A stretch of 64,000 bases of DNA from Squalus acanthias (GCA_030390025.1 JASTWF010000327.1:186001-250000), one strand, 5' to 3'. Positions 8,103 to 61,355 are shown, numbered from the stretch's first letter. A program made the numbers and translations. The notes: generated from the sequence alone by a model not told the origin.

Positions 8103-10515
8103 CTAGATGTGATTATCAGCAGCAATAACAGCAGAATCCAATTTCGGCAGTAACTTGTGAACTCGCTGGTGTGTCCGCAGGTTGGATGCCTGAATGAATC
8201 CCTTCCCACACATGGAGCAGGTGAACTGCCTCTCCCCAGTGTGAACTCGCTGGTGTATCTTTAGGTGGGATGAGTGACTGAATCTCTTCCGACACACGGA
8301 GCATCTGAACGGCCTCTCCCCAGTGTGAACTCGCTGGTGTATCTTTAGGTGGGATGAATCAGCGAATCCTTTCTGACACACAGAGCAGGTGAACGGATTC
8401 TCCCCGGTGTGAATGCGTTGGTGTATCAGCAGAGCATTACTGCTTTTAAAGGTCTTCTCACAGTCAGAACATTTAAACGGTCTCTTATCAGTGTGAACTT
8501 GCTGGTGTTTCAGCAGGGTTGATGAATGAGCGAATCTCTTCCCACACACGGAGCAGGTGAACGGCTTCTCACCAGTGTGAACTCGCTGGTGCCTAGTGAG
8601 GTTGGATGAACAAGTGAATCCCTTCCCACACACGGAGCAGGTGAACGGCCTCTCACCAGTGTGAGTGAGTTCGTGTCTCTGGCAGCTGGATGACAGACTG
8701 AATCCCTTCCCACACACGGAGCAGGTGAACGGTCTCTGCCCAGTGTGAGTGAGTTGGTGTCTCTGGTGGCTGGATGACAGACTGAATCCCTTCCCACACA
8801 CAATGAGCAGGTGAATGGCCTCTGCCCAGTGTGAACTCGCTGGTGCGTAGTCAGGCGGGATGACAGAGTGAATCCCTTCCCACACTCGGAGCAGGTGAAC
8901 GGCCTCTCCCCAGTGTGAATTCGCCGGTGTACCAGCAGGCCGGATGACAGACTGAATCCCTTCCCACACTCGGAGCAGGTGAACGGCCTCTCCTCAGTGT
9001 GAGTGCGCTGGTGTCTCAGTAGGTGGGATGATTCAATGAATCTCTTCCCACACACAAAGCAGATGAACGGCCTCTCCCCAGTGTGAACTCGCTGGTGTCT
9101 CAGCAGGTAGGATGAATCAGTAAATCCCTTCTGACACACAGAGCAGGTGAACAGATTCTCCCCAGTGTGAGTGCGTTGGTGTGTCAGCAGAGCATTACTT
9201 CTTTTAAAGCTCTTCTCACAGTCAGAACATTTAAACGGTCTCTTATCAGTGTGAACTTGCAGGTGTGCCATCAGGCTTGATGACTGAGTGAATCTCTTCC
9301 CACACACGGAGCAGGTGAACGGCCTCTCCCCAGTGTGAACTCGCTGGTGTATCAAGAGGCGGGATGAACAAGGGAAACTCTTCCCACAGATGGAACAGCT
9401 GAACGGCCTCTCCCCGGTGTGAACTCGCTTGTGCGCCAAAAGGTGGCTTGAACGAGTAAATCTCTTCCCACACACTGAACAGGAGAACGGCCTCGCCCCT
9501 GTGTGAACTCGCTTGTGTGTCAAAAGGCGGACGAAACGAGTGAATCCCTTCCCACACACGGAGCAGTAGAACGGCCATTCCGTAGTGTGAATGTCCTCAT
9601 GTGACATAAGTTGGGCTAAACGAGTGAATCCCTTCCCACACACGAAGCAGTTGAACGGTCTCTCCTTGATGTGAACTTGCTGGTGTTCAGCGAGTTGCAA
9701 TGACTGGGTGAACCTCTCCCCACAGTGAGAGCAACTGAATGGACTCTCATGAGTGTGAAGGAGCTGGTGTTCAGCCAGACGGAATGACTGCTGGAACCTC
9801 TTCCCGCAGTGAGAGCAACAGAACGGTCGCTCGTCAGCGTGAACTCGCTGGTGTTCAATCAGTTCCTCAGAGGTTTTAAAGCTGTTCCCACAGTCAGAGC
9901 ATTTAAAAGGTCTCTCATCAGCATGATCAAGTTGGTGTGCAGTGAGGTGGGATGAACAAGTGAATCCCTTCCCACACACAGAGCAGGAGAATGGCCTCTC
10001 CCTATTGCGAGCTCGCTGGCGTGTCAGCATGCTAGACAATTGAGTAAATCCCTTCCGAGAGAGAGCAGGTGAACAGCCTATCCCCGGTCTCCAGCTGGGA
10101 CTGTTAACTGAATCCCTTCCCACAGTCTCGACATTTCCATACTTTCTCCGTGGTGCGGGTGTCCTTGTGTCTCTCCAGGTTGGACAATCAGTTGAAGCCT
10201 CGTCCACACACAGAACACGTGTACGGTTTCTCCCCGCTGTGAATGGTGCGATGTTTTTTCAGGCTGTGTAACTGGTTAAAGCTCTTTCCACAGTCAGTGT
10301 ACTGGAACACTCTCACTCGGGTGTGTGTGTCTCGGTGCTTTTCCAGTCACACTGATGTTTGAAATCTTTTCCCACAGACAGAACAGACAAACATTTCTCC
10401 TTCCACATTCAAAGTGCGATGATATTCAGGTCCTGATCAATCGAGTGAATCTGTCAGCTGTTCACATGATGTTTGGTTTGAGTTTCCCGTTTGCATATTT
10501 TCCCCTTCTAATACC
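8103..10515 (-). pseudogene. ZNF-A: tandem C2H2 zinc-finger exon, ~22 fingers, disrupted
   Basis: ORFs 8510..10207 and 8103..8969 with HTGERPF linkers; acceptor ttttacag ends at 10516; TGA at 10347-10349 and 10188-10190, TAA plus frameshift near 10105, frameshift near 8800; ATG at 10030 could still give ~14 fingers. Confidence 0.85.
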
Positions 10516-10959
10516 CTGTAAAAAGAATTTACAAAATCATCACTGTAAGTACAGGATAGAAATTCAGAACAGACAATTCCAGTTTATATGGAACAATCTT
10601 TCCTCTCTTGTTCCCCCAAAGCTGTAAATCCCCGTCCCACACACTCTCCCTCCTCCCTGTGCTGAAATCCAAACCCATCGCACCATCTCCAACATTTCTT
10701 TCCTCCACTCCCAGTTTTCCCCCTCCCTCTACTCTGGTTGGGTTCAGTTCCACACCCGCTGTGTGCAGAGTGAGAATAAAATCAATGAGTCAATGATTGT
10801 CTCTCCTGGTCACTGGGCCTTTTTGGATGGACCAATAGGGTGAGACTGGGTTGCCCCAGGGTCACCAAACAAGAATCAGCCCAACAAGGCTCCCTTTCAG
10901 GGGCCACTAATATGGGAGAAACATGTGGTCCAATCAAACTGACAGACACCCTGAAGCCC

Positions 10960-11330
10960 CGCCCACTATTTGTTCCTGGCCAAAATACCGCGCATGCGCC
11001 CTGAGACCCGCCCTGTCCAAGATGGCGGCCAGTCACCCGGGCGGTCACGGACCGGGCCTGTAACCAGGGAAACACGGGGCCTGTGGGCTCTTATTCGGGG
11101 CCTCAGGCCGACACCAGGTGTTTACAAAGCTTTTAAACCCACCCGCGGGCCCAATGCATCCACTGCGCCCACAATCGCCTTCCGGCTCCCGGCCGCTGAC
11201 CCGCCTGTTTCACTCAATCCATCACCGCCACTCGCACTGCGCATGCCCAGAGCACACTAGTTACTGCGCCGGCGCACTGGGCTCCTGTCGTCATTGATGG
11301 AGCACTGTCAGCCGCGCGGGGGATTCTGGG
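10960..11330 (-). promoter_or_regulatory. CpG-island promoter of ZNF-A
   Basis: CpG-rich; NRF1 palindrome GCGCATGCGC 10990-10999; YY1 AAGATGGCGGC 11019-11029; GC box near 10957; homologous to 22110-22270 and 31550-31950. Confidence 0.75.
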
Positions 11331-60432: not shown

Positions 60433-60637
60433 ATCATACTGAAAACTGGGAGCGGAGGACAAACTATCTTGAGACGTCTTTGGATTTTAGCACAGGGAGG
60501 AGGGACAATATGTGGGACGGGGATTTACAGCTTTGGAGGAAGAAGAGGGGAAAGAATGTTCGATAGAAACTAAAATTGTCTGTTCTGAATTTCTGTCCTG
60601 TACTTACAGTGATGAATTTTGTAAACTCCTTTTACAG

Positions 60638-61355
60638 GGTATTAGAACAGGAGGATTTGCAGATGGGAAACTCAAACCAAACATCATGTCAAAATCTGAC
60701 AGTCGCTCGTTTACTCAGCACCTGAATATTATCGGCCTTTGAATGTGGAAGGAGAAATGTTTGTCTGTTCTGTCTGTGGGAAAAGATTTCAAAGAACAGT
60801 ATGACTGGAAAAGCACCGAGACACACACACCCGAGTGAGAGTGTTGCAATGCACTGACTGTGGAAAGAGCTTTAACCAGTTACACAGCCTGAAAAAACAT
60901 CGCACTATTCACAGCGGGGAGAAACCGTACACGTGTTCTGTGTGTGGACAAGGCATCAACTGATCGTCCAACCTGGAAAGATACAATGACACCTGCACCA
61001 CGGAGAAACCATGGAAATGTGGGGACTGTGGGAAGGGATTCAATTACCCGTCTGAGCTGGAAATTCATCATCGCACTCACACTGGGGAGAGGCCGTTCAC
61101 CTGCTCCATGTGTGGGAAGATTTCACTCAGTCATCCGACCTGCTGATACACCAGCGAGTTCACACTGGGGAGAGACCGTTCACCTGCTCCATTTGTGGGA
61201 AGGAATTCACTCGGTCATCCACCCTGCTGAGACACCAGCGAGTTCACACCGGGGAGAGGCCGTTTACCTGGTCTGAGTGTGGGAAGGGATTCACTCGGTC
61301 ATCCAACCTGCTGAGACTTCAACGAGTTCACACTGGTGAGAGACCGTTCAAGTGA
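60638..61355 (+). pseudogene. ZNF-J: short C2H2 array, frameshifted and degenerate
   Basis: Acceptor ttttacag ends 60637; TGA 60802-60804 and 60961-60963; ACG 61000; 1-nt loss near 61118; last finger has Cys->Trp and His->Leu. Confidence 0.85.

What the first reader, a model, noticed from the sequence alone, without database searches (positions are those of the whole stretch)
10188..60963. Two in-frame TGA codons fixed at the same finger positions in all seven type-1 ZNF paralogues
Seen: each type-1 exon opens with three finger-like units, ...CGKRFQTSV*LEKH...[14 protein letters not shown]...CGRGFN*SSNLERH. Stop pairs: A 10347/10188, C 21870/21711, E 29885/29726, G 37840/37681, H 48004/47845, I 55094/54935, J 60802/60961. 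Spacing is exactly 159 nt in 7/7, with no indel, while neighbouring codons vary (TSV vs RTV; SSN/LSN/SFD/SFN/LSK) and downstream arrays differ in finger number. Known: these are helix positions +3 and -1, both base-contacting; UGA-C (first stop, TGA CTG) is the leakiest stop context. Type-2 genes B and D have Arg (AGA, CGA) at the second site. Inference: either the stops are founder CGA->TGA relics in a leader that is now constrained ([15 protein letters not shown] is a 15-codon uORF with ATG in 6/7 copies), or UGA is recoded (readthrough, Sec, A-to-I editing) to switch three extra fingers on. Neutral co-inheritance from a recent founder is not excluded.
Basis: partly seen in the sequence, partly recalled or inferred. 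Interest (0 to 1): 0.85.

Follow-up and report, generated by a model that had tools for sequence, protein, structure and literature searches.

The report
Inherited stop codons in dead zinc-finger leader
The two shared TGA codons are old disabling mutations copied along with a zinc-finger gene that multiplied to thousands of copies, so they are inherited scars and not a sign of an unusual way of reading the genetic code.

Summary
In detail: all 7 window copies carry both in-frame TGAs, 159 nt apart.

The seven belong to a genome-wide family. A 21-mer from finger 2 occurs 2162 times. Genome-wide, TGA stands at site 1 in 1932 of 1979 flank matches and at site 2 in 1366 of 1712.

An intact single-copy relative, L040, starts its 339-codon ORF 10 nt after the same splice acceptor. 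It has TGG at site 1, CGA at site 2 and both His in finger 3. Type-1 copies have lost that ATG, both codons and one His.

The three leader "fingers" look like a dead 5' coding remnant:
- The finger frame is broken again in 23 of 50 copies.
- There is no codon-position bias.
- Zinc-ligand codons change as often as other codons.
- TGA1 varies as much as its neighbour codons.
- No SECIS match and no UGA-CUAG context were found.

Recoding and a conserved uORF are not supported. Neutral co-inheritance from a founder is supported.

Two points remain open. The downstream arrays keep their zinc ligands about 9-fold better than the leader, so they may be translated from a start after TGA2. The leader also diverges less family-wide than its flanks, for no reason I could establish.

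The parts
10149..10515 (-). Copy A leader: exon start after the acceptor (10515) to the post-TGA2 codon ACG (10151-10149). TGA1 is at 10349-10347 and TGA2 at 10190-10188.
   Evidence: There is an extra TGA in the pre-finger part.
8156..10148 (-). Copy A finger array, decayed. It has an 18-nt deletion and frameshifts at finger 4, and about 23 units of 84 nt.
   Evidence: Its close relative is L061, 97.3% identical.
21672..22038 (-). Copy C leader. TGA1 is at 21872-21870 and TGA2 at 21713-21711. The post-TGA2 codon is ATG (21674-21672). An extra stop lies right after the acceptor.
20752..21671 (-). Copy C array. It is open for 188 codons from the ATG, then frameshifted.
29687..29966 (-). Copy E leader, which has a 66-nt deletion in the pre-finger part. 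TGA1 is at 29887-29885 and TGA2 at 29728-29726. The post-TGA2 codon is ACG.
28763..29686 (-). Copy E array: 11 intact fingers, open to the canonical end (stop 28765-28763).
37642..38008 (-). Copy G leader. TGA1 is at 37842-37840 and TGA2 at 37683-37681. The post-TGA2 codon is ACG. There is an extra TGA in finger 1 (KH*DTH).
36970..37641 (-). Copy G array: 8 intact fingers, with no in-frame Met anywhere in the open frame.
47806..48172 (-). Copy H leader. TGA1 is at 48006-48004 and TGA2 at 47847-47845. The post-TGA2 codon is ATG.
47134..47805 (-). Copy H array: 8 fingers, but with a premature TGA in finger 4 (47739-47737).
54896..55263 (-). Copy I leader. TGA1 is at 55096-55094 and TGA2 at 54937-54935. 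The uORF ATG is ATC here. There is a 1-nt insertion in the pre-finger part.
54224..54895 (-). Copy I array: 8 intact fingers.
60638..61002 (+). Copy J leader. TGA1 is at 60802-60804 and TGA2 at 60961-60963. The post-TGA2 codon is ACG.
61003..61350 (+). Copy J array, frameshifted after 48 codons.
49065..49136 (-). Promoter and non-coding exon-1-like block upstream of H (CCGCGCATGC ... CATCAG|GTGAG). Like blocks lie at 22359-22430 (C) and 39551-39590 (G). The motif alone also occurs at 10988 (A) and 31606 (E).
   Evidence: Its role is inferred from sequence motifs only.
15179..15964 (-). Type-2 gene B: an intact 261-codon ORF from its own ATG. It lacks fingers 1-2 and has Arg (AGA) at site 2.

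Best explanation
The two TGAs are inherited founder lesions.

The closest intact relative in the same genome is L040, a single copy on a large contig. Its whole 339-codon protein is encoded in one exon, starting at an ATG 10 nt after the same splice acceptor. Against it, the type-1 consensus shows four differences:
- ATG>GGG at the start codon.
- TGG>TGA at helix position +3 of finger 1.
- CGA>TGA at helix position -1 of finger 3.
- CAC>CGC at the last His of finger 3.

The first roughly 390 nt of the old coding sequence were therefore dead in, or near, the founder. The founder was then copied at the DNA level, in tandem and head-to-head clusters, to about 2000-3000 copies, and the stops were copied with it.

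The three 'fingers' are now an untranslated 5' leader. They take up frameshifts, new stops and zinc-ligand losses without regard to the frame. The TGA codons mutate like their neighbours: CGA, AGA, GGA, CAA, TAA and TGG variants all exist.

Shown: descent, the lesions, and a neutral pattern in the finger frame. Inferred: the polarity of the changes, which rests on one outgroup. Also inferred: if the downstream arrays are still made into protein, translation must begin after TGA2. The candidates are the ACC-ATG-G present in about 29-36% of copies, or near-cognate codons in the other copies.
For: Descent:
- The leader has 1316 first-look candidates genome-wide, and the 40 scored were 98-100% identical.
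- The finger-2 21-mer occurs 2162 times against 0 for the reversed control.

Outgroup and lesions. L040 is 85.8% identical over 436 aligned nt.

No recoding or frame constraint:
- Spacing is 159 nt in only 38 of 51 copies.
- 23 of 50 copies carry a new frameshift (16) or stop (14) in the leader. That is 0.00275 per nt, against 0.00090 per nt in the arrays (p = 2e-4).
- The indel-to-substitution ratio is 0.061 in the leader and 0.065 in the intron. 22 of 26 leader indels shift the frame.
- Substitution by codon position is 0.041/0.040/0.036.
- Ligand codons changed in 45 of 545, other codons in 247 of 3373.
- Array integrity is independent of leader frame: 35 of 66 copies with 159-nt spacing are intact, against 6 of 13 without (p = 0.76).

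TGA1 is not specially kept:
- 47 variants of 1979, against 52 of 1984 and 81 of 2013 at the flanking codons.
- The pattern with TGG at site 1 occurs at 17 places. Six were fetched: one is L040 itself, and the other five are decayed type-1 copies.

TGA2 stands in only 79.8% of matches.

Other tests:
- No Rfam match, SECIS families included.
- The leader RNA fold has z = +0.32.
- The contexts are UGA-CUGG and UGA-UCGU, whereas efficient vertebrate readthrough used UGA-CUAG (PMC4132726, passages read).
Against: - Family-wide, fingers 1-3 diverge 2-3 times less from the consensus (0.036-0.041 per site) than the intron (0.135), the pre-finger part (0.085) and finger 4 (0.083). Exact 21-mer counts agree: 2162 for finger 2 against 1289 for the best intron 21-mer. 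Some nucleotide-level constraint or homogenisation is therefore not excluded.
- Polarity rests on one intact outgroup.
- The 44 fetched copies come mostly from one contig (C29) and were chosen by an exact 21-mer inside the leader.
- No usable RNA evidence was obtained.
- 29 of 41 intact arrays lack an ATG at the post-TGA2 codon, and 8 have no in-frame Met at all. How the arrays would be translated is therefore unexplained.
- Copy counts may be inflated by haplotigs: pairs 99.2-99.7% identical sit on different contigs.
Confidence: 0.88

Rival explanations
1. UGA is recoded by readthrough, selenocysteine insertion or A-to-I editing. Translation from the upstream ATG then adds three fingers to the array.
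For: - UGA followed by C at site 1 is a relatively leaky context (PMC4132726, passages read).
- Editing UGA to UGG would restore the ancestral Trp at site 1.
- All 7 window copies keep the frame.
Against: - The frame is lost in 13 of 51 copies between the two sites.
- 23 of 50 copies have new disabling lesions.
- The uORF ATG is kept in only 41 of 51.
- Finger 3 lacks a zinc ligand.
- There is no coding signature.
- Intact arrays are equally frequent behind frameshifted leaders.
- No SECIS match was found.
- There is no CUAG context.
- The fold z-score is +0.32.
Confidence: 0.02
2. The leader is a constrained regulatory element. It could be a uORF ending at TGA1, or a DNA or RNA element lying in fingers 1-3. 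On this reading the stops are kept because the element is kept.
For: - Family-wide divergence of fingers 1-3 is 2-3 times lower than in the flanks.
- Genome-wide 21-mer counts are 2162 for finger 2 against 1289 for the intron.
- TGA1 stands in 97.6% of matches.
Against: - TGA1 is no better kept than its neighbour codons.
- The uORF ATG is kept in 41 of the 51 sampled copies.
- The indel-to-substitution ratio equals the intron's.
- In recently diverged pairs the leader evolves at 0.78 times the flank rate (15 pairs, p = 0.08), or 0.84 times (6 pairs without similarity-picked loci, p = 0.31).
- There is no unusual RNA fold.
Confidence: 0.08
3. The dead leader spread sideways through an already diversified family by gene conversion (concerted evolution), and not only vertically by duplication.
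For: - The leader coalesces more shallowly than the intron, the pre-finger part and finger 4.
- The pre-finger part exists in at least three diverged versions joined to near-identical fingers 1-3.
- CGA/TGA at site 2 and ACG/ATG after it are scattered over the tree: 9 and 18 changes on 79 tips (the tree is weak).
Against: - Close pairs show no clear leader deficit.
- The tree is poorly resolved, so the scatter may be noise.
- No conversion tracts were mapped.
Confidence: 0.15
4. The whole family is dead, arrays included. The arrays look healthy only because copies are young and the conserved parts of fingers are homogenised.
For: - 25 of 50 arrays are broken.
- 29 of 41 intact arrays have no ATG at the post-TGA2 codon.
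- Having an ATG is not linked to array integrity: 12 of 26 with ATG against 29 of 53 without (p = 0.63).
- In the six closest pairs with intact arrays, my hand sum gives codon positions 22/26/34, which is not skewed.
- Copies that lost the array were still duplicated.
Against: - Zinc-ligand codons changed in 8 of 844 in 24 intact arrays, against 45 of 545 in the leader of the same copies (p = 6e-12).
- Disabling lesions are 3 times rarer per nt in the arrays.
- The indel-to-substitution ratio in finger 4 is 0.024, against 0.061 in the leader.
- Third positions change more across all pairs: 0.068 against 0.040 and 0.045.
Confidence: 0.35

Closest known systems
Lineage-specific tandem clusters of poly-C2H2 zinc-finger genes, such as KRAB-ZNF clusters of mammals and FiNZ-ZNF genes of cyprinid fish (PMC10547256; abstract in a search listing and one passage read)
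   Same: - Hundreds to thousands of young paralogues in clusters.
- One long exon carrying the finger array.
- Fast change in finger number and helix residues.
- Many pseudogenes among the copies.
   Different: - No KRAB, SCAN, BTB or FiNZ-like N-terminal domain was found. The tests were Pfam on the intact relative and on 182 other ORFs of 75 aa or more in the window.
- The ancestral protein is encoded entirely in the finger exon.
- Every member of this subfamily shares a disabled start and first three fingers.
Degenerate ('fossil') zinc fingers inside ZNF genes (PMC2667407, passages read)
   Same: Finger-like units that have lost Cys or His ligands lie beside intact arrays and are inherited by paralogues.
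   Different: Here the degenerate units also carry in-frame stops and lie upstream of any usable start. They are leader sequence, not part of the protein.
Programmed UGA readthrough genes with UGA-CUAG, namely OPRK1, OPRL1, MAPK10 and AQP4 (PMC4132726; abstract and passages read)
   Same: A UGA followed by C at site 1.
   Different: - There is no CUAG (the contexts are CUGG and UCGU).
- There is no coding signature after the stop.
- The frame is not kept.
- The stop is no better conserved than its neighbours.
Selenoprotein genes
   Same: In-frame UGA.
   Different: - No SECIS match, even at E <= 1.
- The UGAs align with Trp and Arg in relatives, not with Cys or Sec.

Membership tests
Poly-C2H2 (Krueppel-type) zinc-finger gene | Tandem C-x2-C-x12-H-x3-H units of 28 aa joined by TGEKP-like linkers | tested here: met
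   Pfam zf-C2H2 scores: E = 4e-80 (copy E array, 11 stretches), 2e-56 (G), 1e-43 (I) and 4e-67 (L040).
KRAB-, SCAN- or BTB-ZNF subfamilies | An N-terminal effector domain encoded upstream of the array | tested here: not met
   No such domain was found in the L040 ORF. None was found in 182 non-array ORFs of 75 aa or more in the window. Those ORFs gave reverse-transcriptase and endonuclease fragments in 17, one further zinc-finger fragment and one GDSL-like ORF. Exons shorter than 75 aa were not covered.
Programmed stop-codon readthrough | Protein-coding constraint continues past the stop, with the frame kept and fewer changes at codon positions 1 and 2 | tested here: not met
   Codon positions change at 0.041/0.040/0.036. 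22 of 26 indels shift the frame. New stops or frameshifts occur in 23 of 50 copies.
Programmed stop-codon readthrough | The stop codon and its 3' context (UGA-CUAG) are conserved | tested here: not met
   The contexts are CUGG and UCGU. TGA1 shows 47 variants of 1979, against 52 of 1984 and 81 of 2013 for the neighbour codons. The motif definition comes from PMC4132726.
Selenoprotein | A SECIS element in the 3' UTR | tested here: not met
   Rfam gave 0 matches at gathering score over the whole window. It gave 0 matches at E <= 1 in 27500-30200, which covers copy E and its flanks.
Selenoprotein | The UGA aligns with Cys or Sec in homologues | tested here: not met
   The UGAs align with TGG (Trp) and CGA (Arg) in L040, and with AGA/CGA (Arg) in type-2 genes.
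A-to-I edited stop (UGA>UGG) | A double-stranded RNA structure at the site, and an RNA-DNA difference | tested here: inconclusive
   The leader fold is no better than shuffled sequences (z = +0.32). An RNA-DNA comparison was not possible.
Regulatory uORF | The uORF start and stop are conserved above the background of the leader | tested here: not met
   The ATG is kept in 41 of 51 sampled copies. The stop varies like its neighbour codons.
Unprocessed (duplicated) pseudogene segment | Shared disabling lesions, followed by decay that ignores the reading frame | tested here: met
   This holds for the leader only. For the arrays the picture is mixed.

The most novel reading that the evidence does not exclude
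A family of 2000-3000 zinc-finger genes lost its start codon and first three fingers, yet its arrays remain under selection.

Translation would begin after the second TGA at near-cognate codons in an optimal Kozak context. The candidates are AAC-CUG-G, 4 codons after TGA2, and ACC-ACG-G, 13 codons after it. Initiation might follow re-initiation behind the two short uORFs.

The ACG is repeatedly turned into ATG by CpG deamination, and that change would be favoured. TG stands at this CpG in 19 of 50 copies, against CA in 4. The other 17 CpGs show at most 9 of 50 TG, with totals of 64 TG against 100 CA. Genome-wide, ATG accounts for 427 of 1495 matches.
Probability: 0.15. Interest if true: 0.6.

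Novelty: new member of a known kind. Interest (0 to 1): 0.25.

Why it matters
It shows how a striking pattern can arise without recoding. Two stops at base-contacting finger positions, shared by every paralogue in view, turn out to be simple inheritance in a very large young gene family.

It also gives a practical test set for such cases: an outgroup state, variation at neighbouring codons, frame-blind indels and loss of zinc-ligand codons.

For annotation, about 2000 or more finger exons in this genome should not be modelled with read-through leaders.

The remaining question is whether arrays behind a dead 5' coding region are still translated, and from which start. It bears on how start codons turn over in fast-evolving transcription-factor families.

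Tried and rejected
**RNA evidence.** The look-up of sequencing runs listed no holder on record as RNA. Read laying on window 28000-47999 used runs X1, X5 and X9 (RNA only as a guess) and X19.
- It returned contigs only, with very many repeat-derived pieces.
- None of the 40 listed 'other letter' rows lies at a TGA; 357 more rows were not shown.
- No clean splice joint at the acceptors was listed.
- Nothing can therefore be said on expression, splicing or editing.

**Protein searches.** I searched with the N-terminal 140 aa of L040 and with the leader read with X at the stops (longer proteins). Both gave only generic zinc-finger proteins, at most 52% identical. No close annotated relative or read-through model was found, and nothing was learned about other species.

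**Earlier findings.** The search of earlier findings returned nothing by place or by sequence.

**Papers.**
- A search for shark zinc-finger expansions found only general statements in PMC8455134 (passages read).
- PMC10547256 has no text on cartilaginous fish (term search).

**A transposon-like unit.** I considered this because homology between H and the other copies ends sharply about 90 nt before the acceptor. I rejected it because copies A, G, I and J share further upstream sequence.

**Tree-based counting.** Counts of ATG/ACG and TGA/CGA changes rest on a short, weakly resolved alignment. I do not use them as a count of events.

**Sampling.** The anchor-chosen sample therefore stayed at 44 fetched copies.

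**Anchor bias.** The worry was that choosing copies by the anchor 21-mer made the leader look conserved. I checked this with genome-wide exact counts and with close pairs.
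Full report
**Observation**

Reading the minus strand at 10100-10500 shows both TGAs of copy A in the finger frame. 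Translating all seven stated places gives the same leader in each:

...[49 protein letters not shown](I/V)[29 protein letters not shown](T/M)[13 protein letters not shown]...

An alignment shows no indel between the two stops in 7 of 7 copies. The uORF ATG is present in 6 of 7; copy I has ATC. Type-2 genes B and D have AGA and CGA at the second site.

**Anatomy**

The seven copies become alignable about 90-200 nt before a strong acceptor-like site (...CTGTACTTACAGTGATGACTTTTGTAAACTCCTTTTACAG|G). This site lies about 165 nt upstream of TGA1, or about 80 nt in copy E, which has a 66-nt deletion.

A CpG-rich block with CCGCGCATGC and a donor-like CATCAG|GTGAG lies 0.3-1.6 kb further upstream. It is found upstream of C, G and H, and the motif alone also upstream of A and E. 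The likely gene is therefore a short non-coding exon 1 plus one long exon. This model is inferred from sequence only.

All three frames of the leader contain stops. Downstream of TGA2 the state of the seven arrays is:
- E, G and I are intact, with 11, 8 and 8 fingers.
- H has a TGA in finger 4.
- C and J are frameshifted.
- A is heavily decayed.

Pfam finds only C2H2 finger families. I also scanned 182 other ORFs of 75 aa or more in the window. Seventeen matched retrotransposon reverse-transcriptase or endonuclease families, one was a further finger fragment and one was a GDSL-like ORF. There was no KRAB, SCAN or BTB domain.

**The family**

The window's genome has 3.71 Gb in 3882 contigs. The 261-nt leader of copy E has 1316 first-look candidates. 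The 40 that were scored are 98-100% identical and lie on many contigs. Exact pattern counts over the whole genome are:

| Pattern | Matches |
|---|---|
| Finger-2 21-mer (reversed control 0) | 2162 |
| Site-1 flanks with NNN | 1979 |
| ...of which TGA | 1932 |
| Site-2 flank with NNN | 1712 |
| ...of which TGA | 1366 |

Among the first 100 listed site-2 matches the other codons are CGA 10, GGA 3, AGA 2, CAA 2, TCA 2, TAA 1 and TAT 1.

The best-kept intron 21-mer occurs 1289 times. In my sample, 42% of anchor-bearing copies carry it. This suggests roughly 3000 copies in all. Pairs 99.2-99.7% identical on different small contigs may be haplotigs, so counts could be inflated by up to about two-fold.

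**Sample**

I fetched 40 stretches around the first places listed for the 21-mer. They hold 44 copies. With the 7 window copies this makes 51, chosen only by that 21-mer. One of them is the outgroup L040.

The 30 loci were picked by leader similarity. I used them only where that choice cannot bias the result.

In the 51 copies:
- Site 1 is TGA in 49, TGG in 1 (L040) and TG- in 1.
- Site 2 is TGA in 37, CGA in 9, AGA in 2, and CAA, TGT and TAA in 1 each.
- Spacing is 159 nt in 38.
- The uORF ATG is present in 41.
- The codon 13 codons after TGA2 is ACG in 25, ATG in 18, ACA in 4, and other codons in 4.

**Where the stops came from**

L040 (contig C6, a lone copy) has the same polypyrimidine tract and acceptor. 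It is then open for 339 codons from an ATG 10 nt into the exon (MEDLQTGSSNQTS...). It has about 11 fingers and no other domain. It is 85.8% identical to the type-1 consensus over 436 nt.

| Position | L040 | Type-1 consensus |
|---|---|---|
| Start codon | ATG | GGG |
| Site 1 | TGG | TGA |
| Site 2 | CGA | TGA |
| Last His of finger 3 | CAC | CGC |

The second stop is a CpG transition.

The pattern with TGG at site 1 occurs at 17 places. Six were fetched. One is L040 itself. The other five are decayed type-1 copies, two of which still have TGA at site 2. These look like back-mutations, which shows that the stop is free to change.

**Is the leader read or constrained?** Several independent tests say it is not read in the finger frame.

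(a) *New disabling lesions.* 23 of 50 family copies have a new frameshift (16) or stop (14) within fingers 1-3. That is 0.00275 per nt, against 0.00090 per nt for the arrays (p = 2e-4).

(b) *Indels.* Indel-to-substitution ratios are:

| Region | Ratio |
|---|---|
| Leader (fingers 1-3) | 0.061 |
| Intron | 0.065 |
| Finger 4 | 0.024 |

In the leader, 22 of 26 indels shift the frame.

(c) *Codon positions.* Substitution by codon position is flat, at 0.041/0.040/0.036.

(d) *Zinc ligands.* The 11 ligand codons of the leader fingers changed in 45 of 545 codon-copies (8.3%). Other leader codons changed in 247 of 3373 (7.3%).

(e) *The TGA1 codon itself.* With identical flanks, TGA1 has 47 variants of 1979. 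The next codon has 52 of 1984 and the previous codon 81 of 2013.

(f) *Link to array integrity.* Intact arrays are as common behind frameshifted leaders (6 of 13) as behind in-frame ones (35 of 66; p = 0.76).

(g) *Known recoding signals.*
- Rfam gives no match in the window at gathering score. It gives none at E <= 1 around copy E.
- The leader folds no better than shuffled sequences (z = +0.32).
- The 3' contexts are CUGG and UCGU. The efficient vertebrate readthrough cases have UGA-CUAG (PMC4132726; abstract and passages read).

**What remains odd**

*Low leader divergence.* Family-wide, fingers 1-3 are the least diverged part of the unit:

| Region | Divergence per site |
|---|---|
| Fingers 1-3 | 0.036-0.041 |
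| Intron | 0.135 |
| Pre-finger part | 0.085 |
| Finger 4 | 0.083 |

The seven window copies show the same order.

In recently separated pairs the deficit nearly vanishes. The leader evolves at 0.78 times the flank rate in 15 pairs (p = 0.08). In the 6 pairs without similarity-picked loci it evolves at 0.84 times (p = 0.31). Three pairs were dropped from the 15-pair comparison because their intron alignment was clearly non-homologous; two of these fell in the six-pair subset.

The pre-finger part also exists in several diverged versions joined to near-identical fingers 1-3. I read this as homogenisation or different coalescence depth. I cannot exclude a nucleotide-level constraint.

*Healthy arrays without a start.* The arrays look selected:
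- Ligand codons changed in only 8 of 844 in the 24 intact arrays that keep a strict 28-aa register. One array was skipped because it has a 2-aa insertion.
- This compares with 8.3% in the leader of the same copies (p = 6e-12).
- The rates are the same for ATG copies (3 of 260) and non-ATG copies (5 of 584).
- Third codon positions change more across pairs: 0.068 against 0.040 and 0.045. This is not so in the six closest pairs, where my hand sum gives 22/26/34.

Yet the arrays lack an obvious start:
- Only 12 of 41 intact arrays have ATG at the post-TGA2 codon.
- 8 have no in-frame Met at all.
- In the 29 without that ATG, on average only 34% of fingers lie after the first Met.

Concerted evolution of the conserved finger blocks, or exchange with functional relatives, could mimic selection.

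*An enriched ATG.* The CpG in that ACG codon shows TG in 19 of 50 copies and CA in 4. The other 17 leader CpGs together show 64 TG against 100 CA, and none exceeds 9 TG. Genome-wide, ATG is 427 of 1495 matches. Either one early ATG lineage expanded, or gaining the ATG is favoured.

**Verdict**

The TGAs are inherited scars in a fossil 5' coding segment of a very large, young C2H2 family. It is a new member of a known kind.

The only part that might repay experiments is whether, and from which start, the arrays behind the dead leader are translated.

Noticed in passing
window 38209-38973 and 58593-60424: A 63-nt minisatellite lies in the putative intron just upstream of the leader exons of G and J. 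It has about 12 copies upstream of G and about 28 upstream of J. Its unit carries acceptor-like (CTTCAG|G) and donor-like (CCA|GTGAGT) motifs.
   Followed up: no
window 11375-12585, 43375-43753, 46191-46456, 52977-53452; also 3542-5102: A 67-nt tandem repeat recurs at four places between the ZNF genes. A separate 40-nt C-rich repeat of about 40 copies lies at 3542-5102.
   Followed up: no
window 15179-15964 (-) and 23761 onward (+): Type-2 relatives lack fingers 1-2, keep an intact finger 3 with Arg, and start at their own ATG (MEAKST...). B is an intact 261-codon ORF. D stops after 61 codons.
   Followed up: partly
the codon 13 codons after TGA2 (e.g. window 21674-21672 in C, 47808-47806 in H): ACC-ATG-G, a Kozak-like start made from ACG by a CpG transition, stands in 18 of 51 sampled copies and in 427 of 1495 genome-wide matches. 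That is far more than TG at any other leader CpG. It is not linked to array integrity.
   Followed up: partly
loci L009, L016, L019, L020, L024: This is a sub-lineage in which the finger array is replaced by unrelated sequence directly after the leader. It nevertheless exists as several 95-99% identical copies on different contigs. Dead units therefore keep being duplicated, or the copies are haplotigs.
   Followed up: no
window 18495-19091 (-), and 17 ORFs including 40156-40689 (+), 50814-51416 (-) and 16517-17491 (-): Retrotransposon debris lies between the ZNF genes. It consists of reverse-transcriptase and endonuclease fragments, plus one ORF with a GDSL-lipase-like / OSK match.
   Followed up: no
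loci L064, L072, L076: In these copies a deletion joins the CpG-rich upstream block directly to the middle of finger 1, removing the acceptor and the pre-finger part.
   Followed up: no
window 32959-33189 (-): An isolated C2H2 finger fragment lies outside the seven type-1 and two type-2 units.
   Followed up: no
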